A DNA stretch of 64,000 nucleotides from Candidatus Geohabitans tengchongensis (GTDB lineage Bacteria; Sysuimicrobiota; Sysuimicrobiia; Sysuimicrobiales; Humicultoraceae). A program made the translations under genes and the position numbers. The DNA is taken from contig JAVKIH010000011.1 of the NCBI GenBank assembly GCA_031459625.1, forward strand, positions 3,010 through 67,009. Direction: 5' to 3'. Positions 5,552 through 23,118 of the stretch are shown here, piece by piece; within the stretch, counting starts at the first letter, position 1, and each line of letters opens with the position of its first letter. The notes beneath the pieces are model-generated. The model made no database searches and was not told where the DNA came from. It saw nothing but the letters and a program-made list of their open reading frames with translations.

Positions 5552-6420
5552 ACCGCTTCGCCCTGAACAGCGCCACCACCGGGCCCGCCGACCTCCTCAC
5601 CGACCTGCGCGTGGCGGCCGCGGCCGGCTTTGGTGCGCTGGAGCTGCGCGACACCAAGCTCGAGGCCTACCTGGCCGGAGGCGGCACCCTGGACGCCCTG
5701 GCGGAGGCCTTCCGCGCGGCCGGCGTGCGGCCGCTCAGCGTGAACGCGCTCGAGCGGGCCACCCTCGTCACCGGGGCGGCCCGTCGCGCCGTGCTGGGGC
5801 GGTGCGCCACGCTGTGCGCCTGGGCCGCCGCGCTGGGAGCGCCCTACGTCGTGGCCGTGCCCGGCCCGCGGGCCGAGGCGGCCGGGGTGGGCGAGGTGGC
5901 CCCGCTGACCGTGGAGATGCTGCGGGCGCTCGCGGCCGTGGCCGCCGAGCACGGCGTGCAGCTGGCCTTCGAGTTCCTCGGCCCGGCCACGAGCTCGGTG
6001 CGCACGCTGGCGGAGGCGCGGACGGTGGTGGAGGCGGTGGGCGACCCGCCGGTGGGGCTGGTGCTGGACGCCTTCCACTTCCACGTCGGCGGCTCCACCC
6101 TGGAGATGCTGGACGGCCTCGACCCGGGGCGCCTGGCCATCGTCCACCTGGACGACGCCGAGGATCGGCCGCGCGAGCGGCTGGAGGACGCGCACCGGCT
6201 CCTGCCGGGAGAGGGGGTGATCCCCCTGCGGCCGCTGGTGGCGCGCCTGGAGGCGCTGGGCTACCGCGGCGCCTACTCGGTCGAACTCTTCCGGCCGGCA
6301 TACTGGACCTGGGACCCGCTGCGCCTGGCGCGCGCGGCGCGCGCCTCGCTGGAGGCGCTCTTCGCCGGACGGGAGCCCGGCGTGGCGGGGCATCCGCAGA
6401 GAGGTGCGCCGTCGCCGTGA
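5548..6420 (+). CDS. iolI: Inosose isomerase (2-keto-myo-inositol isomerase)
   Basis: LNSATT, LSVNAL, YVVAVP, AFEFLG, GLVLDAFHFH, HLDDAED, SVELFRPAYW, collinear with recalled B. subtilis IolI. Start GTG 5548. Confidence 0.78.
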   Translation: MNRFALNSATTGPADLLTDLRVAAAAGFGALELRDTKLEAYLAGGGTLDALAEAFRAAGVRPLSVNALERATLVTGAARRAVLGRCATLCAWAAALGAPYVVAVPGPRAEAAGVGEVAPLTVEMLRALAAVAAEHGVQLAFEFLGPATSSVRTLAEARTVVEAVGDPPVGLVLDAFHFHVGGSTLEMLDGLDPGRLAIVHLDDAEDRPRERLEDAHRLLPGEGVIPLRPLVARLEALGYRGAYSVELFRPAYWTWDPLRLARAARASLEALFAGREPGVAGHPQRGAPSP

Positions 6421-6448
6421 ACCGACGGCAGGGAGGTGGGGCGTCGAC

Positions 6449-7495
6449 GTGAGCGTGCGGGTGGGCATCCTGGGTGCGGGGTTCATCGGGCGCATCCACG
6501 CCCTCGACCTCAGGCGCGATCCGCGCGTCACGCTGGTGGGGGTGGCGGACGTCGTCCCGCAGGCCGCCACCCGGCTGGCCGCGGAGGTGGAGACCGCCGC
6601 CTGCGCCTCGCTGGCCGAGCTGCTGGACCGCGGCGCCGAGGCGGTCTACGTCTGCACGCCCAACGTCCAGCACGTCGAGCCCGTGGTGACGGCCCTTCGC
6701 GCCGGGGTGCACGTCTTCAGCGAGAAGCCCATGGCCACGTCCCTGGCCGACGCCTGGACGATCCGCGAGGCGGCGCGCCGCTCCCGGGCGGTCTACCAGC
6801 TCGGCTTCAACCGCCGCTTCGCCCGCGTCTACCGCTTCGTGCGCCGCCTCATCGACGAGGGGCGCCTCCACCCGGTGCTGGGACAGCTCAAGCACAACCG
6901 CGGGGAGCTGCAGCAGCCGCCCTGGACGGGCGACCCGGCGGTGACCGGCGGCTACCTGTACGAGACGCCGGTGCACCTCTTCGACATGGCCCGCTTCCTC
7001 CTGGGCGACGTCGCCGACGTCCAGGGGGTGGCCCGCCAGACCGTCTACCGGGAGCTGGACGGCTTCGTCCTGCTCTTCCGCTTCCGCAACGGGGCCGCCG
7101 CCAGCGTGACCTCGGTGGCGCACACCTCCTGGTTCTTCCCCTACGAGCGGGTGGAGCTGTACGGTCCGCACCAGACGGCGGTCACGGAGGAGCTGGAGCG
7201 CGCCTGGTTCAGCCCGGGGGTCCGCGAACAGGTCGAGGGCATCGACTGCTTCCAGATGCCCTTCGAGGAGAAGTGGGGCTACGTGGAGGAAGACCGCTGC
7301 TTCATCGACGCGGTGCTGGGCGAGGCTCCGCCGCCCGTCACCGCGGAGGACGGCTACCGGGCCACCGAGCTGGTGGAGGCCGTCTACCGGGCGGTGCGCA
7401 CGGGACAGCCCGTCACGCTGCCGCTCCCCGAGCCCGGTGGCTCCCCTGCACCGGCAGAACCCGGCGAGACGGGCTCGGGCCGCCGACCGGTGTGA
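6449..7495 (+). CDS. Gfo/Idh/MocA oxidoreductase, probable inositol dehydrogenase
   Basis: GAGFIG, SEKPMA, GFNRRF. SD GGAGGTG upstream of GTG 6449; inositol context. Confidence 0.85.
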   Translation: MSVRVGILGAGFIGRIHALDLRRDPRVTLVGVADVVPQAATRLAAEVETAACASLAELLDRGAEAVYVCTPNVQHVEPVVTALRAGVHVFSEKPMATSLADAWTIREAARRSRAVYQLGFNRRFARVYRFVRRLIDEGRLHPVLGQLKHNRGELQQPPWTGDPAVTGGYLYETPVHLFDMARFLLGDVADVQGVARQTVYRELDGFVLLFRFRNGAAASVTSVAHTSWFFPYERVELYGPHQTAVTEELERAWFSPGVREQVEGIDCFQMPFEEKWGYVEEDRCFIDAVLGEAPPPVTAEDGYRATELVEAVYRAVRTGQPVTLPLPEPGGSPAPAEPGETGSGRRPV

Positions 7496-7505
7496 CCGCG
7501 CGCCC

Positions 7506-8330
7506 ATGACCACCCCCGGCCCGATCCGCCTCATTGTCACCGACATCGACGGGACGCTCACGACGACGGCGCAGGAGATCACGCCCCGCGTGCGGCAGGC
7601 GGTGGCGGCGGCACGGGCGCGCGGCGTGCCCACCTGTGTGGCCACCGGCCGGGCCTGGCGCTCCGGTCGCCGCTACATCGAGGCCCTCCCTGCCGACCCC
7701 CCGGCCATCCTCTTCAACGGCGGGATGGTCTACGACTTCAGCCGGGACCGCGTGCTCTTCCGGCAGGGGATGGACCCCGAGCTGGCGCTGGTGGTGGTCG
7801 AGGCCCTCGACGCCCACCCCGACCTGGCCGCCCACCTCTACGTGGGCGACCGGATCTACGTGCGTCGGTGGACGCCGCTCGTGGCCGCCACCGCCCTCCA
7901 CGACCACCTCGACCCCGAAGCGGTGGGCGACCTGCGCACCGTCCTCCCCCGCGACCGCGCCGCGCCGATCATGAAGTTCCGCATCCTGGGCCCGCGGGAG
8001 GAGCTGGAGGCCCTGGCCGAGGCGCTCGGACGGACAGACCCCGTGAACTACGTCTTCTCCGAGACCACGTCCCTGGAAGTGCTCCCGCCGGGCGTCTCCA
8101 AGGGGACGGCGCTGCGGGTGGTGGCGGAGCACCTGGGGGTGGACCTGGAGGCGGTGATGGCGGTGGGGGACGAATGGAACGACCTGACGATGCTCCAGGC
8201 GGCCGGATGGGGCGTGGCCATGGCGGACGCGCCCGAGCCGGTGCGCCGGGCTGCCCGCGTGGTGGCGCCGACGAGCGACGCCGACGGACTGGCAGTGGTG
8301 ATCGAGCGGTACGTCCTGGACGGCCGCTGA
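7506..8330 (+). CDS. Cof-type HAD phosphatase
   Basis: DIDGTL, ATGR, SKG, GDEWNDLTML. Confidence 0.92.
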   Translation: MTTPGPIRLIVTDIDGTLTTTAQEITPRVRQAVAAARARGVPTCVATGRAWRSGRRYIEALPADPPAILFNGGMVYDFSRDRVLFRQGMDPELALVVVEALDAHPDLAAHLYVGDRIYVRRWTPLVAATALHDHLDPEAVGDLRTVLPRDRAAPIMKFRILGPREELEALAEALGRTDPVNYVFSETTSLEVLPPGVSKGTALRVVAEHLGVDLEAVMAVGDEWNDLTMLQAAGWGVAMADAPEPVRRAARVVAPTSDADGLAVVIERYVLDGR

Positions 8331-8367: not shown

Positions 8368-9396
8368 ATGGGCAGGACGGCTGTGATCGGCCTGATCGTG
8401 ATGCTGGCGGCGCTCGCGCTCCCGGGACTCCCCGGCGCGAGCGCCCAGGGCGGGCGCATCGTGGTCTACTCGGCGCTGCCGGACCTGGAGACCTCGCTGA
8501 TCAACCGGGAGTTCACCCGCCGCACCGGGATCCAGGTGGAGGCGCTCAGCGTCGCCGCGGCGGGGACCCTCCAGGCGCGCATCCGGGCGGAGAAGGACCG
8601 GCCGCGCGCCGACATCTTCGTGGGCGGGTCGGCCGACTTCCACGCCCCGCTGGCGCGGGAGGGGCTCCTGCTGGCCTACCGGTCGCCGGTCTTCACCGAG
8701 GCGCGCATCAGCCCCACCTACCGCGACCCCAACGGGTACTGGCACGGCTGGTACCTGGGGGCGCTGGCCATCATCATCAACACCGACCGCTGGGAGCGGG
8801 AGATGGCCCCGCGGCGCATCCCCAAGCCGGCCACCTGGGACGACCTGGCCCGGCCGGAGTTCCGGGGTCAGTTCATCATGCCGAGCCCCATCACCACCGG
8901 GGGCGGCTACATCTTCGTGGCGGCGCAGATCTTCCGCCTGGGGGAGGAGCGGGCCTGGGCCTTCCTGCGCACCCTCAACGGCAACGTGGCCCAGTACACG
9001 CCCACGGCCCCCGGGACGATCACCCTGCTGGAGCGCGGTGAGGCCGTCGTGGGGATGATGTGGGCGCACGAGGGAATCGGCGCGCGCATCCTGCGCAGCG
9101 CCCCGCTGGAGGTGACGGTGCCGCCGGACACCGCCTTCGAGATCGGTGCCGTCTCCATCCTGCGCGGCGGGCCCAACCCGGCCGGCGCCCGCGCGTACGT
9201 GGACTTCCTGCTGACGCGCCTGCCGCAGGACATCAACGCCAAGTTCGGCTTCCGCTACCCCGTGCGCGGCGACGTGCCGGTGCCGCTGGGCGCCACGCCC
9301 TTCGAGCAGCTGAAGTTCGTCCGCTACGACCGCGACTGGGCGGTGGAGCACCAGGCGCGCATCCGCGAGCGGTGGACCCGCGAGATCGGTCGCTGA
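8368..9396 (+). CDS. ABC substrate-binding protein, FbpA/AfuA family
   Basis: Signal peptide; RIRAEKDRPRADIFVGG, PATWDDL, MPSPITTGGGY. Confidence 0.88.
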   Translation: MGRTAVIGLIVMLAALALPGLPGASAQGGRIVVYSALPDLETSLINREFTRRTGIQVEALSVAAAGTLQARIRAEKDRPRADIFVGGSADFHAPLAREGLLLAYRSPVFTEARISPTYRDPNGYWHGWYLGALAIIINTDRWEREMAPRRIPKPATWDDLARPEFRGQFIMPSPITTGGGYIFVAAQIFRLGEERAWAFLRTLNGNVAQYTPTAPGTITLLERGEAVVGMMWAHEGIGARILRSAPLEVTVPPDTAFEIGAVSILRGGPNPAGARAYVDFLLTRLPQDINAKFGFRYPVRGDVPVPLGATPFEQLKFVRYDRDWAVEHQARIRERWTREIGR

Positions 9397-9406
9397 GCAG
9401 GAACCG

Positions 9407-11044
9407 GTGAGGGCCGGGGCGGTCGCGCTGGAGTGGCGGAGGCTCCGCCGGCACGCCGACCCCGGCCTGCTGGCCGTCTACACGGGGGCGCTGCTCCTCC
9501 TGGCCCTGGCCGTCCTCTACCCGGCCTACCGGGTGCTGGTCTACCCGTCGTGGGCGGACTACCTGGCCATCCCCCGCAGCCTGCGCTGGCTGCAGGCCGC
9601 CCGCAACAGCCTGGTGATGATGGTCCTCTCCACGGCCAGCGCCACGCTGGTGGGGGTGCTCTTCGCCTTCGCCACCACCCGCCATGACCTGCCGGGCCGG
9701 CGCCTCTTCCGGGCCGCGGCGATGCTGCCGCTCTTCGCGCCGCCCTTCATGGTGGCGTTCGCCTACATCCTCATGTTCGGCCGGCAGGGGCTGGTCACGC
9801 GCACGCTGCTCGGGCTCGACGCCAACATTTTCGGCTGGCACGGCCTGTGGCTGGTGCAGACGGTGGCCTTCTTCCCGCTGGCGATGCTCATCATCGCCGG
9901 CGTGCTCGAGGCCATCAACCCGAGCCTGGAGCACGCGGCGCGGAACCTGGGCGCCCCCGAAGGGGCGGTCCTGCGCACGGTCACCCTGGCCCTGGCCCGC
10001 CCGGGGATCGCCGGGGCGATGCTGGTGGTGGCCATCTCGGTGCTGGCCGACTTCGGCAACGCGGTGATCATCGCCGGCAACTTCCCCCTGCTGGCCACCG
10101 AGGCGTGGTTCCGCATGGAGGGGATGGGGGACCTGACCGGGGCGGCGCTGGTCGTGGGGATGCTGCTCGTGCCCACCGTCCTCCTCTTCCTCCTGGAGCG
10201 CTTCTGGGTGAGCCGCCGCGTCTACGTGACGGTCACGGGCCGGGGCTCGCGCATCGAGCGGCCGCCCACCCCGCCGGCCGTCCGCTGGGCGGTCCTCCTG
10301 GCCTGCCTGCTGGTGACGGTGCTCGTGGCGCTCGTCTACCTGGGGGTGCTGGCCGGCGCCTTCACGGCGGTGTGGGGGCGCGACTGGTCCCTCACCCTGG
10401 AGCACTGGCACCTGGCCCGCGACCGGGCGGGGACGCTGTGGGCCAGCGTACGCGTGGGGACGCTCGCCGGCGTCGTCACCGCCGTGACCGGGGTGCTGGT
10501 GGCCTTCCTGGCCACGCGCCCGCTGCCGCTGCGCGGGGTCCTCGACTTCCTGGCGGTCCTGCCCGGGGCGCTCCCCGGCGTCTTCGTCGGCGTGGGCTAC
10601 GTCCTGGCCTTCAACCCCACGCCGCTCGGCGGCACGGTCTGGGCGGTGGCGCTGGCGCTGGGGATGTGGCACCTGCCCATGGGCTACCAGGCCGCCGCAG
10701 CGCGGCTGCGCCAGGTGGAGCGGGCCATCGAGGAGGCGGCGGTGAACCTGGGGGCCACGGGGCTGCGCGTGCTGCGGGACATCTACCTGCCCATGCTCCT
10801 GCGCGCGCTGGCGGAGGCGTTCGCCGTCTCCTTCGTGCGGGGGGTGACCAACGTGAGCATCGTGGTCTTCCTCATCGCCCCGGGGCAGGTTGTGGCCACC
10901 TTCGCCATCCTCAACATGATCCAGAACAACATCTGGGGCGCGGCGGCGGCGCTCACCACCATGCTCCTCCTCCTCACCGTCGTGGCCGTGGGGGCGAGTT
11001 GGCTCCTGCTGGGGCGGGCCGTGCGCACCGCGCCGGTGGGATGA
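9407..11044 (+). CDS. ABC permease, FbpB family (two TM domains)
   Basis: Two EAA motifs (LEHAARNLGA, IEEAAVNLGA), LADFGN. Confidence 0.9.
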   Translation: MRAGAVALEWRRLRRHADPGLLAVYTGALLLLALAVLYPAYRVLVYPSWADYLAIPRSLRWLQAARNSLVMMVLSTASATLVGVLFAFATTRHDLPGRRLFRAAAMLPLFAPPFMVAFAYILMFGRQGLVTRTLLGLDANIFGWHGLWLVQTVAFFPLAMLIIAGVLEAINPSLEHAARNLGAPEGAVLRTVTLALARPGIAGAMLVVAISVLADFGNAVIIAGNFPLLATEAWFRMEGMGDLTGAALVVGMLLVPTVLLFLLERFWVSRRVYVTVTGRGSRIERPPTPPAVRWAVLLACLLVTVLVALVYLGVLAGAFTAVWGRDWSLTLEHWHLARDRAGTLWASVRVGTLAGVVTAVTGVLVAFLATRPLPLRGVLDFLAVLPGALPGVFVGVGYVLAFNPTPLGGTVWAVALALGMWHLPMGYQAAAARLRQVERAIEEAAVNLGATGLRVLRDIYLPMLLRALAEAFAVSFVRGVTNVSIVVFLIAPGQVVATFAILNMIQNNIWGAAAALTTMLLLLTVVAVGASWLLLGRAVRTAPVG

Positions 11045-12240
11045 GGGTGCCCGAGCCGACCGTGACCGGGCGCACGCCGGCGACCGACCCGGGCTCGTTG
11101 ACCGACCGGACCGCGGGGCCCCCGCACCTCCGGCTGGTGGAGGTGACGAAGCGCTTCGGGGCGCACGTGGCGGTGGACCGGGTCTCCCTGGCGCTGCCCG
11201 AGGGCGCCTTCACCACGCTCCTGGGCCCGTCCGGCTGCGGCAAGACCACCGTCCTGCGCCTGGTGGCGGGGTTCTACCGACCGGACAGCGGGGAGATCCT
11301 GCTGCGTGAGCGCCCCATCACCGACGTGCCGCCGCACCGCCGCCACATGGCGATGGTCTTCCAGGAGTACGCCCTCTTCCCCCACCTGACGGTCGGGGAG
11401 AACGTCGCCTACGGCCTGCGTATGCGCCGGGTGCCGCCGCGGGAGACGGCGCGGCGGGTGGCGGAGGCGCTGCGCCTGGTGGGGCTGGAGGGGCAGGAGC
11501 GGCGCTTCCCCCACCAGCTCTCGGGCGGGCAGCAGCAGCGGGTGGCGCTGGCGCGCGCGCTGGTCGTGGAGCCGGAGGTGCTGCTGCTGGACGAGCCGCT
11601 CAGCAACCTGGACGCCAAGCTGCGCGTGCGGGTGCGCACGGAGATCCGCCAGCTGCAGGAGCGGCTGGGCAAGACCACGCTGTACGTCACCCACGACCAG
11701 GAGGAGGCGCTGGCCATCTCCGACCAGATCGCCGTGATGCACGCGGGGCGGATCCTGCAGGTGGGCACCCCCACGGAGATTTACTTCCGGCCGCAGAACC
11801 GCATCGTGGCCGACTTCGTGGGACTGGCCACCTTCGTGGAGGCCGAGGTCGCGGGGTCGGGACGGGTGCGCGTGCACGGCGTCGTCGTCCCTGTGACCGG
11901 CCCGCTGCCGCCGACGGGACGGGTGACCCTGGTGGTCCGGCCCGAGGCGGTCCGGCTGACGCCCGCTCGTAGCGGGGGCGAAGACGGCGGCGGGCTGCGG
12001 GGCCGCGTCGTGGCCCGGGCCTTCCTCGGCGGAGTGGTGCGCTGCTGGGTGGACGTGCACGGCGCGGAGTGGGTGGTGGACGTGCCGGTGGACCAGGAGG
12101 TGCCCGTCGATGGGGTGGTGGCGCTGCGGTTGGGGGAGCGCGTCCACGCCCTCCCGGAGGGGCCGGCGGGGAGCGCCGCGGAAGGTCCGGCGGGGAGCGG
12201 CGAGGGGCCGGCGCGGGACCGTGCAGGCCCCACAATGTAA
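11041..12240 (+). CDS. ABC ATP-binding protein, FbpC/PotA family
   Basis: GPSGCGKT, LSGGQQQR, LLDEPLSNLD, C-terminal TOBE-like region. Start ATG 11041. Confidence 0.92.
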   Translation: MRVPEPTVTGRTPATDPGSLTDRTAGPPHLRLVEVTKRFGAHVAVDRVSLALPEGAFTTLLGPSGCGKTTVLRLVAGFYRPDSGEILLRERPITDVPPHRRHMAMVFQEYALFPHLTVGENVAYGLRMRRVPPRETARRVAEALRLVGLEGQERRFPHQLSGGQQQRVALARALVVEPEVLLLDEPLSNLDAKLRVRVRTEIRQLQERLGKTTLYVTHDQEEALAISDQIAVMHAGRILQVGTPTEIYFRPQNRIVADFVGLATFVEAEVAGSGRVRVHGVVVPVTGPLPPTGRVTLVVRPEAVRLTPARSGGEDGGGLRGRVVARAFLGGVVRCWVDVHGAEWVVDVPVDQEVPVDGVVALRLGERVHALPEGPAGSAAEGPAGSGEGPARDRAGPTM

Positions 12241-12368: not shown

Positions 12369-13334
12369 ATGGGCAAGTGGGACCTGCCGCCCCGAGGCGG
12401 CCACATGGACAAGCGCACCGGGATCTACCTGCAGACCATGACCCAGCGCGACATCGAGGAGCGCCTGGCCACCAACGACGTCCTCATCGTGCCGCTGGGC
12501 GCCACCGAGGCGCACGGCCCCAACGCGCCCATCGGCGAGGACATCTTCCTCGTCTGCCGCATGGCCGAGGTGGTGGCGGAGCGCACCGGGTGCACCGTCT
12601 CCGAGCCGCTGTGGTTCGGTTCTCACCCCTACCACCACCTGGGCATGCCCGGGACCGTGCCCATCCCCGAGGACGTCTTCACCGCCTTCGTGCGGGCGAT
12701 GATCGCCGGCTTCTGGAACATGGGCTTCCGCAAGCAGATCCTGCTCAACGGCCACGGGCAGGAGTACGTCATCCCCACGGCGATCCACCAGTTTGGCAAG
12801 CGCTACCGGGTCCCGGCGCTGATCGTGAACGTGAACTGGTACCATGCCATCCCGGACCACTTTCGCCTCAAGCAGGACGGAGGGCCCTACGAGACCCCCT
12901 TCATCCACGCCGACGAGGTGGAGACCTCCTGGTGCCTGGCGCTCTTCCCCGAGCTGATGAAGCAGGAGTGGGTCGTGGACAACGAACCCTTCGGCTTCCT
13001 CCCGGAAGGCCACGTGGACAAGGCCGGGAACCTCCTGCGCCGGCCGATCAACTGGTACGGGCACGTGGGGGCGGGCCCCATCGAGGTGAAGGCCTACATC
13101 GAGGGCGTCGTGGGGAAGCCCTCCCTGGCGGCGGCGGAGAAGGCGCTGCCGGGCGTGGAGGCGCTGCTCGACTACCTGGAACGCCTCGTCACCGACATCC
13201 TGGCCCGCTTCCCGCCCGGGGAGCTGCCCCCCATCGACCTGGTGACCGAGCGCGACCGGGAGGAACTGGAGGCGGTGCTGCGCGGGCCGGCCCGCGGGGG
13301 CAAGTCCATTTACGCGCTGGGCTGGCCGCCGTGA
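12369..13334 (+). CDS. iolN: 3-dehydro-scyllo-inosose hydrolase (creatininase family)
   Basis: GIYLQTMT, GATEAHGPNAPIGED, HPYHHLGMPGT, LNGHGQE, PFIHADEVETS, very close to recalled Thermotoga IolN. SD GGAGG before ATG 12369. Confidence 0.92.
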   Translation: MGKWDLPPRGGHMDKRTGIYLQTMTQRDIEERLATNDVLIVPLGATEAHGPNAPIGEDIFLVCRMAEVVAERTGCTVSEPLWFGSHPYHHLGMPGTVPIPEDVFTAFVRAMIAGFWNMGFRKQILLNGHGQEYVIPTAIHQFGKRYRVPALIVNVNWYHAIPDHFRLKQDGGPYETPFIHADEVETSWCLALFPELMKQEWVVDNEPFGFLPEGHVDKAGNLLRRPINWYGHVGAGPIEVKAYIEGVVGKPSLAAAEKALPGVEALLDYLERLVTDILARFPPGELPPIDLVTERDREELEAVLRGPARGGKSIYALGWPP

Positions 13335-13347: not shown

Positions 13348-14181
13348 GTGCGCGTGAGCCTGGTCGTCTCCCTGGAGGCCACCGCGTTCGATGCGGTGGC
13401 GATGCGCCAGGGGCTGGGGGCCCTGGAGGCGGTGGCGGCGCTGGGCTACGACGGGGCGGAGCTGGCCGTGCGCGACCCGCAGGCGGTCGACGGCGGGTGG
13501 CTGCGCGACCGCTGCGCGCAGTTGGGGCTGGCCGTCCCCGCACTCGGCACCGGGCAGGCCTACCTGCGCGACGGCCTGGCGCTGGCCCACCCGGAGGCAG
13601 GCATCCGCCGGGCGGCCATCGAACGCATGCGGCACCACGTCGCCCTGGCCCGGCAGCTGAGCGCGCTCCCGGGGACGCCGGCCGCGGGCGTCCAGGTGAT
13701 CGTCGGGCTGATCCGAGGCCCGGCGGGCCAGGACCGGCCAGGGGCCGAGCGGCGCCTCACCGAGGCGCTCCGGCCCTGCCTGGACGCGGCGGCCGAGGCC
13801 GGGGTGGGGCTGGTGATCGAGGCGATCAACCGCTACGAGAGCGACTGGCTGCACACCCTGGAGGAGGTGGCGGCGCTGGTGGAGCGCGTCGGCCACCCGC
13901 GGCTGGGCGTGCTGGCCGACACCTTCCACATGAACATCGAGGAGCGGTCGATGGACGAGGCCCTGCGCGCCGCCGCGCCCCATCTGCGCCACGTGCACGT
14001 GGCCGACAGCAACCGCCGCGCGCCGGGGCAGGGGCACCTCGACTTCGCGCGGCTGGTGGGCGTCCTGCGCGAGGCCGGCTACGACGGGTTCCTCTCGGCG
14101 GAGATCCTGCCGTGGCCCGACCCGGATGAAGCCGGGCGGCTGGCCATCACCCACCTGCGCGCGGTGCTGGGGCGGCCCTGA
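13348..14181 (+). CDS. iolO: 5-keto-L-gluconate epimerase
   Basis: SLVVS..AFDAVA, ELAVRDP, GTGQAYL.DGL.L, VIVGLIRG, INRYE, LADTFHMNIEE, DSNRRAPGQGH, matching recalled Thermotoga IolO. Confidence 0.88.
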   Translation: MRVSLVVSLEATAFDAVAMRQGLGALEAVAALGYDGAELAVRDPQAVDGGWLRDRCAQLGLAVPALGTGQAYLRDGLALAHPEAGIRRAAIERMRHHVALARQLSALPGTPAAGVQVIVGLIRGPAGQDRPGAERRLTEALRPCLDAAAEAGVGLVIEAINRYESDWLHTLEEVAALVERVGHPRLGVLADTFHMNIEERSMDEALRAAAPHLRHVHVADSNRRAPGQGHLDFARLVGVLREAGYDGFLSAEILPWPDPDEAGRLAITHLRAVLGRP

Positions 14182-14229
14182 GGCGCGGGGCGCGGGCGGC
14201 GACGCACGACATCGTCAGGGAGGGAGAGG

Positions 14230-15264
14230 ATGCCCATGGGAATGCGGAGCGCTCTGCTGGTCCTGCTGGCCGTGCTGGTGCTGGCTCCGCTCGGAGCGGT
14301 GCGCGCCGCGCCGGGCGGACAGGTGAACGTGCTGTGCAGCCCCAACCCGGCCTGGTGCGACGCCATCAAGGTGGAGTTCCCCAAGGCCACGGGGATCGCG
14401 CTCAACTACGTCCGCCTGAGCTCCGGCGAGGCGCTGGCCCGCCTGCGCGCCGAGGGGGAGAACCCCTCCTTCGACGTCTGGTTCGGCGGGACGGGCGACC
14501 CGCACATCGTGGCCAACGAGACGGGGTTGACGGAGTTCTACCGCCCCAAGGCCTGGGCCGATCTGCGGCCCGAGCTGCGCGAGGCCGTGGCGAACAAGTA
14601 CATCCCCCTCTACGCCGGCATCCTGGGGTGGGCGATCAACGGCGGCCTGCTGCGTGAGAAGGGCATCCCGGTGCCGCGCACCTGGCAGGACCTCGGGCAC
14701 CCGCGCCTGCGCGGGCTCGTGGCCATGCCCAACCCCAACACCAGCGGCACCGGCTACACCATGCTGGCCACCGTCGTCCAGATCTACGGTGAGCGCGAGG
14801 CCTTCGAGCTGCTCAAGCGCATCCACCGCAACGTCGCCCAGTACACCCGCGGCGGAGCCGACCCCGGCGTGCTCACCGGGCGCGGTGAGGTGGCCGTGGG
14901 GGTCACCTTCATCCACGACGCCGTGGACAACGTCCTCAAGGGCTTCCCCATCACCTACGGGGCGCCGTCGGACGGCACCGGGTACGAGATCGGCGGTCTC
15001 AGCCTGGTGCGACGGACGCGTAACCGCGAGGCGGCCATCACCTTCATCGACTGGGCCCTGACGCCGGAGGCGCAGATGATCGCGGCCACCCAAGGACAGT
15101 CCTACCAGATCCCGTCCAACAGCAAGACGCCCGTCCCCCGGGTGGCGCCGCGCTTCCAGGACTTCAAGGTGATCAAGTACGACTTCCTCAAGTACGGGTC
15201 CGCCGCCGTCCGGGACGCCCTCGTGCGCCGGTGGACGACGGAGGTCTTCCCGCTGCCGAAGTAG
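14230..15264 (+). CDS. ABC substrate-binding protein, AfuA-like (sugar-phosphate binding)
   Basis: LCSPNPAWC, FDVWFGGTGDPH, PNPNTSGTGYT, QYTRGG, FIHD, GTGYEIGG resemble AfuA. Confidence 0.88.
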   Translation: MPMGMRSALLVLLAVLVLAPLGAVRAAPGGQVNVLCSPNPAWCDAIKVEFPKATGIALNYVRLSSGEALARLRAEGENPSFDVWFGGTGDPHIVANETGLTEFYRPKAWADLRPELREAVANKYIPLYAGILGWAINGGLLREKGIPVPRTWQDLGHPRLRGLVAMPNPNTSGTGYTMLATVVQIYGEREAFELLKRIHRNVAQYTRGGADPGVLTGRGEVAVGVTFIHDAVDNVLKGFPITYGAPSDGTGYEIGGLSLVRRTRNREAAITFIDWALTPEAQMIAATQGQSYQIPSNSKTPVPRVAPRFQDFKVIKYDFLKYGSAAVRDALVRRWTTEVFPLPK

Positions 15265-15267
15265 CGC

Positions 15268-17504
15268 TTGGCCAGGCCCCTCCTCCCCTCGGGCGCGCCG
15301 CCGCTCGCCCTGCGGACCGTCCCCGTGCAGTGGACGGCCATGGGGTGGGGGGCGGCCGCGCTCGTCGTGGGGTTGCTCCTCCCCTGGACCCGGGAGGAGC
15401 GGGCGGTGTGGGCGTATGCCGCCGACGCCACGGGTGCGGCGCTGCTCCGCACCACGCCCGGGGTGGGGCTGGCCCTGCTGGCCGCGGCGCTGGCGGTGCT
15501 GGTCGGCGTGGCGCCGCTGCCGCCGGTGCGCCGGGGGCAGTGGCTGTGGCCGCTCGGGCTGGCCGGAGCGGTCACCATCCTGGTCACCGCGCTGGTGCTG
15601 GGGCGGCCCGTGGGCCTGGGCGCCATCCTCCTCTTCCTCGCCCACCTCACGCTGGCGGGGACGGGGCTCGCGCTCAGCGGCGCGCTGCGCACCGACCCCT
15701 TCACGGCCGCCGCGGTGCTGTGGGCGGCCGTCTTCGTGCTGCTCTTCATCCTCCTGCCGCTGGCGGAGGTGCTGGCGGCGGCGGTCGTGGTCTCGGGCCG
15801 GTTCACCCTGGACGCGGTGCGGGAGACGATCCGCTCACCGGCCTTCTTCCTCCTCGACCGGCCGGCCACGCCGCTGGACGAGGGGCGGGCGGTGCTGGCC
15901 GTGGGCGCGGGTGGAGCGGCGGTGGGGGCCGCCTGGAGCCTCCTGGCCCGCCACCCCCTGCGGGCGGTGGTCGTCCGGACCCTCGCCGCGGGCCTTGGCG
16001 CCGGCGGGCTGGCGGCACTGGTGCTCGGCTTCGGTGCCGTGCGCAACAGCGTGCTGCTGGCGCTGGCCGTGGGCGGGCTCTCCACGGGAGTCGGATTCCT
16101 CTTCGCCCTGCTGGGGGAGCGGTCGCGCCTCCCCACGCGGCGCCTGCTCGGGCCCCTCTCCATCCTGCCCATCATCACCCCGCCCTTCGTCCTGGGGCTG
16201 GCGATGATCTTCATGTTCGGCCGGCGCGGGTTCATCACGCACCAGCTCCTGGGACAGTCGACCACCCTCTTCTTCGGGCCGCTCGGGGTGGGCGCGGCGC
16301 AGGTGCTGGCCTTCACCCCCATCGCCTACCTGGTGCTGGTGGGTGTGGTGCGTGCCCTCGACGTGGCCATGGAGGAGGCGGCCGAGACGCTGGGCGCGTC
16401 ACGCTGGCAGGTGCTGCGGACCGTCATCTGGCCGCTGGCGCGGCCGGGGCTGGCCAACGCCTTCCTGCTGGTGGCCATCGAGAGCCTGGCCGACTTCGGC
16501 AACCCCTTCGTCGTCGGCGGCGGCGCGCCGTTTCTGGCCACGCAGGTCTTCGACGCCATCAGTGGCCGCTTCAACCCGCACGAGGCCGCGGTCTACGGGG
16601 TGACGCTGCTGGGGATGACCCTCACCGTCTTCCTGGTGCAGCGGCTGTGGCTGGGGCGGCGGGGCTACGTCACCGTCACCGGCCGCCCCGGCGCGGGGCT
16701 GGCCCGCCCCCTCCCGCGCTGGCTCGACCTGGGTGGCACCGCCCTCTTCCTGGGGTGGGTGGCCCTCACCGTGCTGCTCTACGGCTCCGTCTTCGTGGGG
16801 GCGGTGACGCGGCTGTGGGGGTTCGACGACACCGTCACCCTCGCCCACCTCCAGGGGCTCACCCCGCAGGGGTGGGCGGTGCTGTGGAATTCCGTGCGCC
16901 TCTCCGCGCTGGCGGCGGTGCCCTCGACGTTGCTCGGTTTCCTCATCGCCTACCTGGTGACGCGCGTGGCCTTCCCGGGCCGGTCGGCGCTGGAGTTCAG
17001 CGCCATGCTCTCCTTCGCCGTCCCCGGCACGGTGATGGGGATCGGCTACATCCTGGCCTTCAACCAGGGGGTGCTGCTCCTCACCGGCACGGAGGTCATC
17101 CTCGTCCTGGCGTTCGTCTTCCGCAATATGCCGGTGGGGATCCGCGCCGGGGTCGCCGCCCTGCACCAGCTCGACCGCGCCATCGAGGAGGCCTCCACGC
17201 TGCTGGGCGCGGGGACCGCCTCCACGCTGCGGCGCATCGTCATGCCGCTCGTGCGGCCGGCGCTGCTCTCGGGGCTGGTCTTCGCCTTCGTGCGCGCCGT
17301 CACGGCGGTGAGCCAGGTGATCTTCCTCATCTCGCCGCAGCACAACCTGGCCACGACGCAGATCCTCTCCTACGTCCAGTACGGGACGCTGGGGCGCGGG
17401 GCGGCGCTGGCCTCGGTGGTGATCGTGCTGCTGGCCGCGGTGGTGCTGGCCCTCTACCTGGTGACGAACCGCCTCGACCCGCGCCTGGTCCGGGAGGTGG
17501 GCGC

Positions 17505-17508
<4 letters not shown>
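15268..17508 (+). CDS. ABC permease, long AfuB-like with N-terminal membrane extension
   Basis: LPIITPPFV, MEEAAETLGA, IESLADFGNP, FAVPGTVMG, IEEASTLLGA. Start uncertain. Confidence 0.9.
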
Positions 17509-18608
<1,100 letters not shown>

Positions 18609-18614: not shown

Positions 18615-20078
18615 ATGGCCCCATCGCCCACGATCCTGACCCTCGACCTGGGGACGACCGCGCTCAAGGCCGCCCTCTTCGACCTCGATGGCGACGTGCT
18701 GGCGGCGGCGCAGTCCACCTTTCCCACGCGCCGGCCCCGCCCTGGGTGGGCGGAGCAGGACGCGCAGGCGTGGTGGCAGGCGACGGTGACCGCCACCCGC
18801 CAGGTGGTGCGAGACGCCGAAGCCTCTATCCGTGCCCTGGCAGGGGTCGGGCTCACCTCCCAGCGCGAGGGCGTGGTGCCGGTCGACGACCGGGGCGAGC
18901 CGGTGGCAGCGTGCATCACCTGGATGGACCGGCGCGCCCAGCCCGAGGCGGAAGCGCTCGGGCGCGAGTTCCCCGACCTCCACCGGCGCACCGGGATGCG
19001 GCCGGAGGCCACCTTCACCGCCGCCAAGGTGCGCTGGCTGGCCCGCCACAAGCCCGAGACGCTCCGCCGCGCCCGCTGGCTCCTCCAGCCGCGGGACTTC
19101 CTCTATTACCGGCTGACCGGCGTGGTCCTGACCGACCCCTCGCTGGCCTCGCGCACGATGCTCTTCGACCTGCGTACCCGCGCCTGGGCCCCCGACCTGG
19201 TGGCCGCGGCGGGAGCCTCACCAGACCAGCTCCCTCCCGTGCTGCCCTCCCTGTGGGCACCCGGGCGGCTGACCGCCGAGGCGGCGCGCGCGCTGGGCCT
19301 GACCGAGAGGACACCGGTCCTCGTCGGCGGCGGAGACCGGGCCTGCGAGGCGCTGGGTACCGGGGCCCGCCCGGGCCGGGCGATGGAGTCCACCGGCACC
19401 ACCACCAACCTCTCCCTGCCTGCCGAGGGCCTGCCTGAGGTCCCCGACGGAATCCTCGTCTCCCTGCACGTCGTGCCGGGGCAGGTTCTGCTGGAGCAGG
19501 GGCTCAGCGCCTCCGGGGCGGTCCTGGCGTGGGTGCGGGCGCTCACGGGGCTGACCGACGCGGACCTGGACGAGGTGGTAGCGCACAGTCCTGCCGGCGC
19601 CCGCGGGTTGCGACTGCTCCCCCACTTCCACGGGGCGCGGGCCCCCTGGTGGGATCCTGCGGCGCGCGCGGTGTGGTCGGGCTTCACGCTGGCGCACGAC
19701 CGCCCCGACCTGGTGCGCAGCGTGCTGGAGGCGGTGGCCTGCGAGGTGCGCGGCTGCCTCGAGGTGCTGCGCGCGAGCGGCCAGCGGGTGGAGGAGGTCG
19801 TGCTGGCGGGGGGTGGCGCCCGCAGCCGGGTCTGGGCGGCGATCAAGGCGCACACCTGGCGCCTCCCGGTGCTCCTGCCCCGGGTGACGGAGGCGGCCTC
19901 GCTGGGGGCCATGGTCCTGGCCGCGGCGGGGTTGGGGCTGCGCCCGCTGGAGGAAGCTACCACCCTCAACCCGCCGGTGGGGCGGATCGACCCGGATCCG
20001 GCGCTGGCGGCGCAGTACGACCGCGTCTACGCCGAGCACCGTGCCCTCTACCAGCGGATGCGTGACGTGCGGGCGTGA
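18615..20078 (+). CDS. FGGY-family carbohydrate kinase
   Basis: LDLGTTALK, WAEQD, TSQREG, WMDRRA, GGGD, STGTT, GARAPWWD, GGGARS. Confidence 0.92.
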   Translation: MAPSPTILTLDLGTTALKAALFDLDGDVLAAAQSTFPTRRPRPGWAEQDAQAWWQATVTATRQVVRDAEASIRALAGVGLTSQREGVVPVDDRGEPVAACITWMDRRAQPEAEALGREFPDLHRRTGMRPEATFTAAKVRWLARHKPETLRRARWLLQPRDFLYYRLTGVVLTDPSLASRTMLFDLRTRAWAPDLVAAAGASPDQLPPVLPSLWAPGRLTAEAARALGLTERTPVLVGGGDRACEALGTGARPGRAMESTGTTTNLSLPAEGLPEVPDGILVSLHVVPGQVLLEQGLSASGAVLAWVRALTGLTDADLDEVVAHSPAGARGLRLLPHFHGARAPWWDPAARAVWSGFTLAHDRPDLVRSVLEAVACEVRGCLEVLRASGQRVEEVVLAGGGARSRVWAAIKAHTWRLPVLLPRVTEAASLGAMVLAAAGLGLRPLEEATTLNPPVGRIDPDPALAAQYDRVYAEHRALYQRMRDVRA

Positions 20079-21064
20079 CACCTGACCCCATGGCCCAGCA
20101 CGCCCTGAGCCTCCCACCCGACGTCGTCGCCCGCCTGGTGGACCTGCGCGTCCACCAACCCCAGCGGGTCCTGGACGCCGCCCGCACCCGCCAGCGTCGG
20201 AGCCGCCTGGCCGGGCCGAACGGCCGGCTGGTCCTGCTGGCGGCCGACCACCCCGCCCGCATGGTCACCGCCGCCGGCGGCGACCCCCTGGCCCTGGCCG
20301 ACCGGTGGGGCCTGCTCGCCCGCATCGCCGCCGTGCTGGAAGAGCCGGGGGTGGACGGCGTGATGGGCACCGCGGACCTCCTCGATGACCTCCTGTTGCT
20401 CGACGAGGTGCGCATGGAGCGGGGGGAAGCGCCGCTGCTGCGGGAGCGCGTGCTCGTGGGCTCGATGAACCGCGGTGGCCTGGCCGGCAGCCGCTTCGAG
20501 CTGGACGACCGCTTCACCGGGTACACGGCCCGGGGCATCGCGGCGATGGGGCTGGACGGGGGCAAACTGCTCGTGCGCGTCGACCCCGACGACCCCGGCA
20601 CCGTGGCCACGCTCGAGGCCGCCGCCCGGGCCGTGGACGCCCTGGCCGACCTGGGCCTGGCCGCCTTCGTCGAAGTTCTCCCGGTGCGGAAGGTGGAGGG
20701 ACGGCTCGCGGTGACGGTCGAGGCGGAAGCCCTTGCCGCAGTGGTCGGGGTGGCGACCGGGCTGGGGAGCTCCTCGCGCCATGTCTGGCTGAAGCTGCCC
20801 GCCTGCCCAGGCTACGACCGGGTGGCCCGGGCCACCACCTGCCCCATCCTGTTGCTGGGAGGGGATGTGGCGCCGGCGGAAGCGGTCCTGCGGGAGACGG
20901 CCGAGGCCCTGGCCGCCGGGCCAACGGTGCGCGGGGTGCTGATGGGCCGCAACGTGCTGTTTCCCTCGGCGGGCACCCCGCGAACGATGGCCCGGGCCGT
21001 CGCCGCCCTGGTCCACGAGGGGGTCGGCTTCACCGAAGCCCGGCGACTCCTGGAGGTGGGATGA
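20075..21064 (+). CDS. Class I aldolase-like (beta/alpha)8 protein, Cgl0159-like
   Basis: LAADHPAR, GVDGVMGT, GSMNRGGLAG..FELDDRFTGY, WLKLP (candidate Schiff-base Lys), LLLGG, MGRNVLFP. Confidence 0.8.
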   Translation: MTPDPMAQHALSLPPDVVARLVDLRVHQPQRVLDAARTRQRRSRLAGPNGRLVLLAADHPARMVTAAGGDPLALADRWGLLARIAAVLEEPGVDGVMGTADLLDDLLLLDEVRMERGEAPLLRERVLVGSMNRGGLAGSRFELDDRFTGYTARGIAAMGLDGGKLLVRVDPDDPGTVATLEAAARAVDALADLGLAAFVEVLPVRKVEGRLAVTVEAEALAAVVGVATGLGSSSRHVWLKLPACPGYDRVARATTCPILLLGGDVAPAEAVLRETAEALAAGPTVRGVLMGRNVLFPSAGTPRTMARAVAALVHEGVGFTEARRLLEVG

Positions 21065-21867
21065 TGCCCCGCTTCTCCGCGAGCCTGAGCTTCCTCTTCA
21101 CCGAGGTGCCGTTCATGGAGCGGTTCCAGGCGGCCTACACGGCCGGCTTTGCGGCGGTGGAGTACATGTTCCCCTACGAGCACAACCTGGAGGCCATCGC
21201 CGCCGAGCTGTCGCGGCTCCAGCTCCGGCAGGTCCTCTTCAACCTGCCGGCGGGCGACTGGAGCCGTGGGGAGCGCGGGATTGCCGCCCTCCCCGACCGC
21301 CGGGAGGAGTTCCGCCGGGGCGTGGTCCAGGCCCTGGAGGCGGCGCGGCGCCTGGACTGCCCTCGCCTGAACTGCCTCGTGGGGTTGCGGGACGAGCGTT
21401 ACACTCTGGCGCAGCAATGGGCGACTCTGGTGGAGAACCTGCGGTGGGCGGCGGAGGAGCTGGGCCGGGAGGGACGCACCCTTCTGGTGGAGGCGGTCAA
21501 CACGTACGACGTCCCCGGGTTCCTCCTGTCGCGCACGGGAGAGGTCCTGCGCCTCCTGGACGATGTGGGCGCTCCCAACACCGCCCTCCAGGTGGACATC
21601 TACCACCTCCAGCGCATGGAGGGGAACATCGTGCCCACCCTGCGGGCGCTGCTGCCACGCATCGGGCACATCCAGATCGCCGACCCCCCGGAGCGCCACC
21701 AGCCCGGGACGGGGGAGCTGCGCTTCGAGTACATCCTGAGGCAGCTCGACGCCATGGGGTATGAGGGCTACGTGGGGCTCGAATATGCTCCCCTGGGGAC
21801 GACGGCGGACTCGCTGGGGTGGATCGAGGCCATGGGGTACAGCCTGACCCAGCCGGCGGGGCGCTGA
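21061..21867 (+). CDS. hyi: Hydroxypyruvate isomerase
   Basis: MPRFSASLSFLFTE, AVEYMFPY, LFNLPAGDWSRGERGIA, DIYHLQRMEG, HQPGTGE. Confidence 0.9.
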   Translation: MMPRFSASLSFLFTEVPFMERFQAAYTAGFAAVEYMFPYEHNLEAIAAELSRLQLRQVLFNLPAGDWSRGERGIAALPDRREEFRRGVVQALEAARRLDCPRLNCLVGLRDERYTLAQQWATLVENLRWAAEELGREGRTLLVEAVNTYDVPGFLLSRTGEVLRLLDDVGAPNTALQVDIYHLQRMEGNIVPTLRALLPRIGHIQIADPPERHQPGTGELRFEYILRQLDAMGYEGYVGLEYAPLGTTADSLGWIEAMGYSLTQPAGR

Positions 21868-21994
21868 GGCCGCGGCCGCGAACCTCTCGACCGCGAACCC
21901 TGTAGTCCGGGCTCGCTGTGCTCCGGAGTCAGCGGCCGGGCCATCCCGGCGCTTCCCGGGCTAAGGCACTTCCCGGGCCAAGGAGGAGGCACAA

Positions 21995-22900
21995 ATGCCA
22001 CAGACCGTCGGGTTCATCGGGTTGGGGATCATGGGGAGGCCCATGGCCCGCAACCTCCTCCGGGCGGGCTTCCGGCTCGTGGTGCACAACCGCAGCCGGG
22101 GACCGGTCGAGGAGCTGGTGACCCAGGGAGCGCTGGACGGCCGGTCGGCCTGCGGGGTGGCCGAGGCGGCCGAGGTCGTGATCACCATGCTGCCGGACAC
22201 CCCTGACGTCCGGGCCGTGGTCCTGGGGCCCGACGGGGTGCTGGAGGGGTTGCGCCGCGGGGCCATCTACGTCGATATGAGTACCATCTCGCCTGTGGCC
22301 ACCCGGGAGCTGGCCGAAGCGGTGCGGGCCCAGGGGGCTGTCATGCTGGACGCCCCCGTGAGCGGCGGTGAGAAGGGGGCGATCGAGGGGACGCTTTCCA
22401 TTATGGTCGGAGGTCCCGAGGAGGCCTTCAGGGAGGTCCTGCCGGTCTTCCAGGCCATGGGCAAGAATATTGTGCGCATCGGGGAGGTGGGGGCCGGCCA
22501 GGTGGCCAAGGCCTGCAACCAGATCGTCGTGGCCGTGACCATCCAGGCGGTCAGCGAGGCGCTGACCCTGGCCCGCAAGGCGGGGGTGGACCCGGGCAGG
22601 GTGCGCGAGGCGCTGCTGGGGGGCTTCGCCCAGAGCCGCATCCTCGACCTGCACGGGCAGCGCATCCTGGAGCGCAACTTCCAGCCCGGCTTCCGAGCCC
22701 GGCTCCACCACAAGGACCTGGGGATCGCCCTGGAGACGGGGAAGGCCACAGGGACGCCGCTGTGGGCCACCGCGCTCGTCCACGAGATCTTCGGCGCGCT
22801 CCGGACCCGCGGCATGGGCGATTTGGACCACTCTGCCGTCGCCCGGCTCGTGGAAGAGCTGGCGGGGCTGGGGGACGCGGGGCCGCAGGGCGTCCACTGA
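21995..22900 (+). CDS. garR: 2-hydroxy-3-oxopropionate (tartronate semialdehyde) reductase
   Basis: GFIGLGIMG, MLPDTPDV, LDAPVSGGEKGA, KACNQIVVA, ALLGGFAQSRIL, GFRARLHHKDL. Strong SD. Confidence 0.9.
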   Translation: MPQTVGFIGLGIMGRPMARNLLRAGFRLVVHNRSRGPVEELVTQGALDGRSACGVAEAAEVVITMLPDTPDVRAVVLGPDGVLEGLRRGAIYVDMSTISPVATRELAEAVRAQGAVMLDAPVSGGEKGAIEGTLSIMVGGPEEAFREVLPVFQAMGKNIVRIGEVGAGQVAKACNQIVVAVTIQAVSEALTLARKAGVDPGRVREALLGGFAQSRILDLHGQRILERNFQPGFRARLHHKDLGIALETGKATGTPLWATALVHEIFGALRTRGMGDLDHSAVARLVEELAGLGDAGPQGVH

Positions 22901-23034: not shown

Positions 23035-23064
23035 TTGACCCCCGCTCGATGGCGCCCCTATAAT
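23035..23064 (+). promoter_or_regulatory. Sigma70-type promoter for tRNA-Asp
   Basis: TTGACC (23035-23040), N18, TATAAT (23059-23064). Confidence 0.85.
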
Positions 23065-23118
23065 GCCCTCGGCGGGAGTGGCTCCGAGGGCGTCAGCCGA
23101 GCCTGAGCCCTGCTGCTC

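What the first reader, a model, noticed from the sequence alone, without database searches (positions are those of the whole stretch)
18615..22900. Candidate new lower inositol pathway: kinase + aldolase cleavage of a 5-keto-hexonate to DHAP + tartronate semialdehyde
Seen: the iolM/iolN/iolO locus ends with an FGGY kinase, a Cgl0159-like class I aldolase and hyi (overlapping stop/starts), then garR. No uxaE/uxuAB/kdgK or iolE/iolD/iolB/iolC/iolJ/iolA is in the window. Known: in Thermotoga, IolG/M/N/O produce 5-keto-L-gluconate and then D-tagaturonate, which exits through hexuronate metabolism. In Bacillus, the 2-deoxy analogue is phosphorylated (IolC) and cleaved (IolJ) to DHAP + malonate semialdehyde. 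Some FGGY kinases (rhamnulo-/fuculokinase) phosphorylate the ketose terminal CH2OH. Inference: the same chemistry on the non-deoxy IolN/IolO product gives DHAP + tartronate semialdehyde, which is the substrate of GarR and Hyi. That accounts for all four genes as one route I do not know to be described.
Basis: partly seen in the sequence, partly recalled or inferred. Interest (0 to 1): 0.88.

Follow-up and report, generated by a model that had tools for sequence, protein, structure and literature searches.

The report
Kinase–aldolase exit for inositol breakdown
This bacterium's inositol-degradation gene cluster ends in a kinase, an aldolase and two three-carbon-acid enzymes that likely split the six-carbon keto-acid intermediate into two halves for glycolysis, a predicted route that relatives appear to build with a different kinase.

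Summary
The genes are real and coupled as described. The 94%-complete genome has iolM, iolN and an IolO orthologue but no uxaE, uxuA, uxaA, gcl, iolE, iolD or iolC. In 92 genomes of the phylum, 66 carry iolN. Of these, 18 have this FGGY kinase clade and 31 have a dedicated PfkA-family kinase in the same slot; none has both. Eight of the other 17 have uxaE, and only 1 of 9 uxaE genomes has either kinase. The aldolase family lies beside iolC in 26 of 26 actinobacterial loci and keeps the same charged residues here. Best reading (about 0.6, no assay): D-tagaturonate is phosphorylated at C6 and cleaved to DHAP plus tartronate semialdehyde, which GarR reduces to glycerate. This is a carboxylate analogue of IolC/IolJ and sulfo-EMP chemistry. 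Against: hyi and garR are common without iolN; 11 kinase-bearing genomes lack the aldolase; the exact four-gene block is rare; one family pairs the kinase with other enzymes. I did not find the route in the literature searched. The scan's earlier notes held no such pathway on other DNA.

The parts
680..1849 (+). iolM, scyllo-inosose 3-dehydrogenase
   Evidence: NF041097 552 bits, cut-off 450; ATG at 680
1929..4746 (+). sugar ABC transporter (binding protein, permease, ATPase); likely inositol uptake
   Evidence: best binding-protein model: rhizopine SBP, below cut-off
4739..5551 (+). unassigned xylose-isomerase-like TIM barrel
   Evidence: PF01261; no NCBIfam model reaches cut-off
5548..6420 (+). 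IolI-like inosose isomerase
   Evidence: PDB 1I60 IolI, E 5e-38
6446..7495 (+). Gfo/Idh/MocA dehydrogenase, likely the inositol dehydrogenase
   Evidence: IolG model 167 bits, below cut-off 355
7506..8330 (+). Cof-type HAD phosphatase
   Evidence: TIGR00099 178 bits, cut-off 137
8368..12240 (+). PhnS2/U2/T2-like ABC transporter 1
   Evidence: all below equivalog cut-offs
12369..13334 (+). iolN, 3-dehydro-scyllo-inosose hydrolase
   Evidence: NF041098 524 bits, cut-off 245
13348..14181 (+). IolO orthologue, 5-keto-L-gluconate epimerase
   Evidence: NF041099 292 bits, cut-off 300; TM0416 best PDB hit
14230..18608 (+). PhnS2/U2/T2-like ABC transporter 2
18615..20078 (+). FGGY kinase of a distinct clade (motifs QPRD, ASRT, GDRxCE); predicted 5-keto-hexonate 6-kinase
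20075..21064 (+). Cgl0159-family class I-type aldolase (invariant D58, K164, E200, K240, G262-G263, G291-R292); predicted to give DHAP + tartronate semialdehyde
21061..21867 (+). Hyi-family isomerase
   Evidence: Hyi 348/353, OtnI 328.7/325
21995..22900 (+). garR, tartronate semialdehyde reductase
   Evidence: TIGR01505 380 bits, cut-off 341

Best explanation
The four genes likely form the lower half of a Thermotoga-type inositol pathway: the kinase would phosphorylate C6 of a 5-keto-hexonate (most likely D-tagaturonate from IolO), the aldolase would cleave it to DHAP plus tartronate semialdehyde, and GarR would reduce the latter to D-glycerate. Hyi would recover the semialdehyde that isomerises to hydroxypyruvate, and the unlinked MOFRL-type glycerate kinase would feed glycerate into lower glycolysis. 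Shown: gene identity, coupling, linkage, phylogenetic pattern and conserved residues. Inferred: every substrate and product. Which epimer is used (tagaturonate, 5-keto-L-gluconate or fructuronate) is the least certain step.
For: (1) Pathway hole: no UxaE, UxuA, UxaA in a 94% complete genome. (2) Of 57 iolN-positive genomes without a strong uxaE, 48 have one of two kinases; 4 more have a weak-uxaE + transaldolase-like pair; the last 5 are under 90% complete. Of 9 with strong uxaE, 1 has a kinase (113, from 26, 27, 34, 35, 74). (3) The FGGY clade (18 iolN genomes, 12 genera overall) and a dedicated PfkA-family clade (31 genomes, 10 genera, all iolN-positive) never share a genome or genus and occupy the same slot beside aldolase/hyi/garR. 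(4) Aldolase in 42 of 66 iolN-positive and 3 of 26 iolN-negative genomes; within 13 kb of iolN in 17 genomes of 8 genera. (5) The same aldolase family lies next to iolC in 26 of 26 actinobacterial loci (also 58, 94-97), where a 2-deoxy-5-keto-gluconate 6-phosphate aldolase is needed; D58, H59, R62, N132, R133, E142, R146, K164, R168, E200, K240, R292 are shared by both groups. (6) The kinase keeps glycerol-kinase-like R84 and D241 but has R242 for Q, T133 for Y and N265 for F, suggesting a larger, anionic substrate. (7) No glyoxylate carboligase over cut-off in 94 genomes; glycerate kinase in 89 of 94; two true xylulokinases, an ATP-PFK and a LacD-type aldolase elsewhere in G000, so these housekeeping roles are filled. 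(8) A divergent metagenome contig (IolN 61% identical, 53% GC) also has aldolase-PFK-iolM-gfo-iolN in a row (L161).
Against: No assay. garR matches 80 of 94 and hyi 65 of 94 genomes, including iolN-negative ones, and hyi-garR stay beside ABC transporter 2 in iolN-negative genera g2 and g9, so their position is weak evidence. 11 of 49 kinase-bearing iolN genomes (8 at least 90% complete) lack the aldolase. In family f4 the kinase sits with another TIM barrel, a 2-hydroxyacid dehydrogenase and PdxA or HpcH, and the aldolase lies elsewhere beside an SDR and an LLM oxidoreductase. The Hyi protein passes the 2-oxo-tetronate isomerase cut-off but not the Hyi cut-off. By recalled stereochemistry the actinobacterial substrate has the D-fructose configuration, so the aldolase must accept the opposite carbinol centre of tagaturonate. 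Only 2 of the 80 metagenome iolN loci showed the aldolase, though most are short. Genomes are related, so counts overstate independence.
Confidence: 0.6

Rival explanations
1. Four-carbon (tetronate) route: the GarR-like and Hyi-like enzymes make 3-oxo-tetronate, the kinase phosphorylates it, and the Schiff-base enzyme decarboxylates it to DHAP + CO2, by analogy with LtnD/OtnI/OtnK/OtnC (pathway recalled, not read).
For: Hyi protein scores over the OtnI cut-off. PdxA-family genes follow the kinase orthologue in genera g23 and g24.
Against: GarR scores 380 on TIGR01505 but 187 (cut-off 350) on L-threonate dehydrogenase. It leaves the IolN/IolO product without an exit and does not explain exclusion by uxaE or the PfkA replacement.
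Confidence: 0.12
2. Cleavage first: the aldolase splits the unphosphorylated keto acid, and the FGGY enzyme phosphorylates a three-carbon product (dihydroxyacetone or glycerate).
For: The kinase has glycerol-kinase-like QRE and ASRT motifs and always lies near glycerate-forming genes.
Against: Glycerate kinase is already present in 89 of 94 genomes. The replacement is a PfkA-family ketose kinase. The aldolase keeps the GG and GR motifs that bind the DHAP phosphate in class I aldolases (role recalled) and follows the kinase IolC in actinobacteria.
Confidence: 0.1
3. Patchwork locus: hyi-garR are inherited neighbours with their own role, and kinase plus aldolase act on a deoxy acid or a hexose phosphate, not on the IolO product.
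For: hyi-garR persist without iolN. The window's aldolase shares some residues with actinobacterial forms and branches near them. A lone iolB-family gene exists. A kdgK-like/eda pair offers a possible other exit.
Against: No iolE or iolD to make the deoxy acid. No UxaA or UxuA, and no sugar-acid dehydratase over cut-off among 42 scanned candidates (not a whole-genome scan). Kinases and aldolase are almost confined to iolN genomes.
Confidence: 0.12
4. Sulfoglycolysis (sulfo-EMP): kinase, aldolase and GarR-family reductase act on sulfofructose.
For: Same three-step design is described for sulfofructose (PMC12890257).
Against: GarR scores 195 (cut-off 348) on sulfolactaldehyde reductase. No sulfoquinovose isomerase or glycosidase family was called among the 22 cluster proteins scanned. 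Distribution follows iolN.
Confidence: 0.03

Closest known systems
Thermotoga maritima inositol pathway (IolG/M/N/O, exit through UxaE-type hexuronate enzymes; Rodionova 2013, not held, seen only as cited in PMC5931981 and PMC12632266)
   Same: [quoted passage not shown]
   Different: No UxaE, UxuA or UxaA here; kinase and aldolase stand in their place.
Canonical IolC/IolJ (or IolC-DUF2090) step of Bacillus-type inositol catabolism (PMC9007349 passages)
   Same: Phosphorylation of C6 of a 5-keto acid and aldol cleavage to DHAP plus a C3 semialdehyde; the Cgl0159 family fills the aldolase slot in actinobacterial clusters.
   Different: Non-deoxy substrate predicted; FGGY or PfkA kinase instead of PfkB-type IolC; no IolE/IolD; reductase GarR instead of IolA.
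Sulfo-EMP and sulfo-EMP2 (YihV/YihT/YihU; SqiK/SqiA) (PMC12890257 passages)
   Same: 6-anionic ketohexose, kinase, aldolase, DHAP plus an anionic lactaldehyde, reduction by a GarR-family enzyme; non-orthologous enzyme sets for one route.
   Different: Carboxylate instead of sulfonate; the C3 product would be assimilated through glycerate kinase; other enzyme families.
Luteolibacter LG18 and Paracoccus 43P L-gluconate pathways (PMC12632266 passages)
   Same: Pass through 5-keto-L-gluconate (and tagaturonate in LG18).
   Different: Both reduce and dehydrate to a 2-keto-3-deoxy acid before phosphorylation; no direct phosphorylation of the 5-keto acid.

Membership tests
Thermotoga-type inositol pathway, upper part | IolM and IolN over model cut-offs | tested here: met
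   552/450 and 524/245 bits
Thermotoga-type inositol pathway, upper part | IolO epimerase | tested here: inconclusive
   292 bits against cut-off 300 (5); best PDB hit TM0416 E 2.5e-57 and position directly after iolN
Thermotoga-type inositol pathway, lower part | UxaE with UxuA or UxaA exit | tested here: not met
   no match in G000, 94% complete
Bacillus-type iol pathway | IolE, IolD, IolC present | tested here: not met
   IolE 42 bits against 290; IolD and IolC only distant paralogues; lone iolB present
Cgl0159 (PF22649) aldolase family | Profile match and conserved catalytic-type residues | tested here: met
   270.8 bits; 3FOK alignment; shared residues
Cgl0159 (PF22649) aldolase family | Demonstrated aldolase activity and substrate | not testable with these tools
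   no paper found for Cgl0159; cg0198 called a conserved hypothetical protein in PMC4609165; identity of cg0198 with Cgl0159 is recalled
Xylulokinase (XylB) | TIGR01312 cut-off and GQMHG / GDxA motifs | tested here: not met
   333/380 bits; motifs differ; two true XylB elsewhere in G000 (121)
Tartronate semialdehyde reductase (GarR/GlxR) | TIGR01505 cut-off | tested here: met
   380/341 bits
Glyoxylate route (gcl-hyi-glxR) | Glyoxylate carboligase | tested here: not met
   0 of 94 genomes over cut-off
Sulfo-EMP | Sulfolactaldehyde reductase and SQ isomerase/glycosidase in the cluster | tested here: not met
   195/348 bits; none called among 22 cluster proteins
Oxo-tetronate pathway | OtnI-type isomerase | tested here: met
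   328.7/325 bits, but Hyi scores higher in absolute bits
Oxo-tetronate pathway | L-threonate dehydrogenase LtnD | tested here: not met
   187/350 bits

The most novel reading that the evidence does not exclude
An undescribed 'uronate glycolysis': 5-keto-hexonates (tagaturonate, fructuronate) are split into DHAP-level carbon plus tartronate semialdehyde without any dehydratase, and this phylum has solved it three ways: an FGGY kinase or a mostly PPi-type PfkA kinase with a Cgl0159 aldolase, and a UxaE-like epimerase with a large transaldolase-like protein. It would mirror sulfo-EMP, sulfo-EMP2 and sulfo-TAL, and IolB-family genes beside the kinases would feed aldo-uronates into it.
Probability: 0.35. 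Interest if true: 0.8.

Novelty: new variant of a known kind. Interest (0 to 1): 0.62.

Why it matters
If correct, it adds a new exit for inositol and possibly hexuronate carbon, with two new kinase activities (FGGY and PfkA families) on a 5-keto-hexonate and a first substrate class for the uncharacterised Cgl0159 aldolases. All published exits that I saw for tagaturonate or 5-keto-L-gluconate go through reduction and dehydration to a 2-keto-3-deoxy acid. The prediction needs only four enzymes and a NADH-coupled assay, and would correct the 'xylulokinase', 'phosphofructokinase' and 'DhnA aldolase' labels that databases give these proteins.

Tried and rejected
A single-protein scan of the species genome collection with the aldolase returned one locus only. 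An AlphaFold job for the kinase never returned, so no structural model was used. Housekeeping roles were rejected: xylulokinase, phosphofructokinase and bisphosphate aldolase genes exist elsewhere in G000. PfkA hits of similar Pfam score in families f4 and f5 (8 regions fetched) gave no tblastn hit above 70 bits to the iol-linked PfkA and were not counted. The glyoxylate source of tartronate semialdehyde was rejected. A class II bisphosphate aldolase does not explain the genomes that lack Cgl0159: it is found in 9 of 94 genomes. The ESM Atlas gave only a family-level name for the f4 TIM barrel. Paper searches with no pathway found. The scan's own notes gave nothing by words or by place.
Full report
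Observation. Kinase and aldolase overlap by GTGA, aldolase and hyi by ATGA, and garR follows after 127 nt. Family scans of 22 proteins from the first 24 kb give iolM (552 bits, cut-off 450), iolN (524/245), an IolO-like protein (292/300), an FGGY kinase (best XylB 333/380), PF22649 Cgl0159-like (E 1.3e-80), a Hyi-family protein (Hyi 348/353; OtnI 328.7/325) and GarR (380/341). The IolO-like protein's best solved relative is Thermotoga TM0416; the aldolase's is Cgl0159, PDB 3FOK. The one promoter-like site found precedes the tRNA-Asp behind garR.

Own genome (94.24% complete). No UxaE, UxuA or UxaA/GarD domain; Gcl and IolE only far below cut-off; no IolC or IolD orthologue. Present elsewhere: a lone iolB-family gene, a MOFRL-type glycerate kinase, a kdgK-like gene with eda, two xylulokinases over cut-off, an ATP-PFK and a LacD-type bisphosphate aldolase and an FBP aldolase/phosphatase. 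So the published exits for tagaturonate are missing and the housekeeping jobs of the kinase and aldolase are already filled. iolA and uxaC were not searched, and the dehydratase check covered 42 chosen proteins, not the whole genome.

Distribution. The phylum holds 94 genomes; two are unpublished and are left out of my counts (92). NCBI labels a relative's protein 'Armatimonadota bacterium', MAG. iolN is in 66. The aldolase is in 42 of 66 iolN-positive and 3 of 26 iolN-negative genomes, two of the three under 70% complete, and lies within 13 kb of iolN in 17 genomes of 8 genera. Kinase orthologues (45% identity or more) are in 20 genomes, 18 with iolN, and within 13 kb of iolN in 12. They form one clade apart from the genome's other FGGY kinases (FastTree support 0.98).

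The main new result. Where this kinase is absent, a PfkA-family gene (PF00365; NF010675 502/273) usually stands next to the aldolase and hyi. It is a dedicated clade, extra to the housekeeping PFK, in 31 genomes, all iolN-positive (27 aligned in full, 3 partial or stop-bearing copies matched at 70-75% identity, 1 counted by position only). No genome and no genus has both kinases. Most copies carry GGND and PKT, recalled as the PPi-type signature; 6 aligned copies have G in place of that D. Of the 17 iolN genomes with neither kinase, 8 have a strong uxaE (followed by a D-mannonate oxidoreductase-type SDR in the one locus so scanned), 4 have a weaker UxaE-family gene paired with a 740-770 aa protein that resembles transaldolases, and 5 are under 90% complete. 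Only 1 of 9 strong-uxaE genomes has a kinase. In genus g21, G058 is the only one of 6 with kinase and aldolase and the only one without uxaE; it is 81% complete. The genomes are kin, so no p-value is claimed.

The aldolase. In a sample of 121 actinomycete genomes, 30 carry PF22649; all 30 fetched loci (26 of 26 without unpublished genomes) have iolC directly adjacent, mostly followed by iolB and iolD; four annotated plasmid records and one named genome show the same. The family therefore sits where the 2-deoxy-5-keto-gluconate 6-phosphate aldolase is needed; passages of PMC9007349 describe that step and propose another LacD-related domain, DUF2090, for it in other bacteria. Charged residues D58, H59, R62, N132, R133, E142, D145, R146, K164, R168, E200, K240 and R292 are shared by iolC-linked and iolN-linked proteins. 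That K240 forms the Schiff base and that the GG and GR motifs bind the DHAP phosphate is recalled from class I aldolases, not tested.

The kinase. Against a solved glycerol kinase it keeps R84 and D241 but changes the Tyr, Gln and Phe that enclose glycerol to T133, R242 and N265. R242 is invariant in the clade and absent from paralogues. An arginine beside the catalytic aspartate and an opened pocket fit a larger carboxylate substrate; this is inference from alignment, as the structure job did not return.

Mechanism. Inositol to scyllo-inosose to diketo-inositol to 5-keto-L-gluconate to D-tagaturonate is the Thermotoga route as cited in PMC5931981 and PMC12632266 (passages; the original paper was not held). 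Phosphorylation at C6 and retro-aldol cleavage between C3 and C4 would give DHAP (C4-C6) and tartronate semialdehyde (C1-C3) with the configuration of D-glycerate. IolO would be kept because it sets C4 to the configuration that DHAP aldolases accept (recalled). Net yield would equal the uxaE route: two pyruvate, two NADH, one ATP. The design matches sulfo-EMP, where sulfofructose is phosphorylated, cleaved to DHAP and sulfolactaldehyde and reduced, with non-orthologous enzyme sets and a transaldolase variant (PMC12890257 passages).

Results against. garR matches 80 of 94 and hyi 65 of 94 genomes (raw tallies), and in iolN-negative genera the pair stays beside ABC transporter 2 or stands alone; its source of substrate there is unexplained. 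11 of 49 kinase-bearing iolN genomes lack the aldolase, 8 of them at least 90% complete; a LacD-type enzyme might stand in, untested. The contiguous four-gene block was seen only in G000, G018 (short contig) and G093 (kinase in two frames, iolN not found). In family f4 the kinase follows iolO with a different TIM barrel and a 2-hydroxyacid dehydrogenase, then PdxA or HpcH; close hyi orthologues are missing there, which would fit a swap of hyi/garR for an isomerase plus hydroxypyruvate reductase, but f4 genomes with uxaE keep these two genes without the kinase. The f4 aldolase is unlinked, though it co-occurs with the kinase in 10 of 13 kinase genomes and 2 of 10 others. Among the best 80 of 568 metagenome iolN loci, the aldolase appears in 2: one close relative and one divergent contig, L161, with aldolase-PFK-iolM-gfo-iolN; most loci are too short to judge.

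Novelty. Searches for tagaturonate + kinase + aldolase + tartronate semialdehyde (1 review hit, listing only), Cgl0159, IolM/N/O, tagaturonate or fructuronate kinase, and the pathway's metabolite names found no description of this route. A hexuronate review lists only reductive-dehydrative and oxidative routes in the passages seen (PMC6353982). The library lacks most subscription papers, and I read no supplements, so a prediction in a database or supplement could exist. Passages of PMC5931981 note that the Thermotoga operon kinase TM0415 may act on an intermediate such as tagaturonate, so a kinase on these acids has been mooted. PMC3750489 and PMC4609165 were seen as passages only.

Verdict. 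Real, conserved in function more than in gene identity, and best read as a new lower branch that reuses known chemistry on a new substrate. Confidence 0.6; interest 0.62.

Noticed in passing
L091:6533-10005 (G030), also L089, L090, L094: A 740-770 aa transaldolase/FSA-like protein is paired with a divergent UxaE-family gene in 9 genomes; possibly a transaldolase route for fructuronate analogous to sulfo-TAL. A relative (39%) lies near iolN on metagenome contig L170.
   Followed up: partly
L039, L041, L044, L046, L048, L050, L051 (family f4 iol loci): iolO is followed by an unassigned 300-320 aa TIM barrel, a 2-hydroxyacid dehydrogenase, the kinase and PdxA or HpcH; hyi orthologues are missing in this family.
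   Followed up: partly
G000:C24:509-1240 (L001); L038, L053, L077: IolB/KduI-family genes without iolD/iolE, in three relatives next to the kinase or PfkA gene and their own ABC transporter; may be uronate isomerases feeding the same keto-acid pool.
   Followed up: partly
window 7506-18608: Two PhnS2-like ABC transporters and a HAD phosphatase inside the cluster, with glycerophosphodiester phosphodiesterases in relatives, suggest uptake of inositol phosphates or glycerophosphoinositol.
   Followed up: no
window 4739-5551: Unassigned TIM-barrel isomerase/epimerase conserved in the cluster; could supply an extra epimerisation.
   Followed up: no
L044, L046, L048, L095: A second IolN subfamily (about 40% identical to the window's) replaces or accompanies the main one.
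   Followed up: no
window 23035-23197: Near-consensus sigma-70 promoter and tRNA-Asp(GTC) directly after garR, followed by a polysaccharide-synthesis region.
   Followed up: no
window 12240-12330: Short GC-rich repeated motifs in the gap before iolN.
   Followed up: no
L158, L159, L173: iolM/N/O genes on contigs with archaeal-looking neighbours; L159 has garR and a TIM barrel beside them.
   Followed up: no
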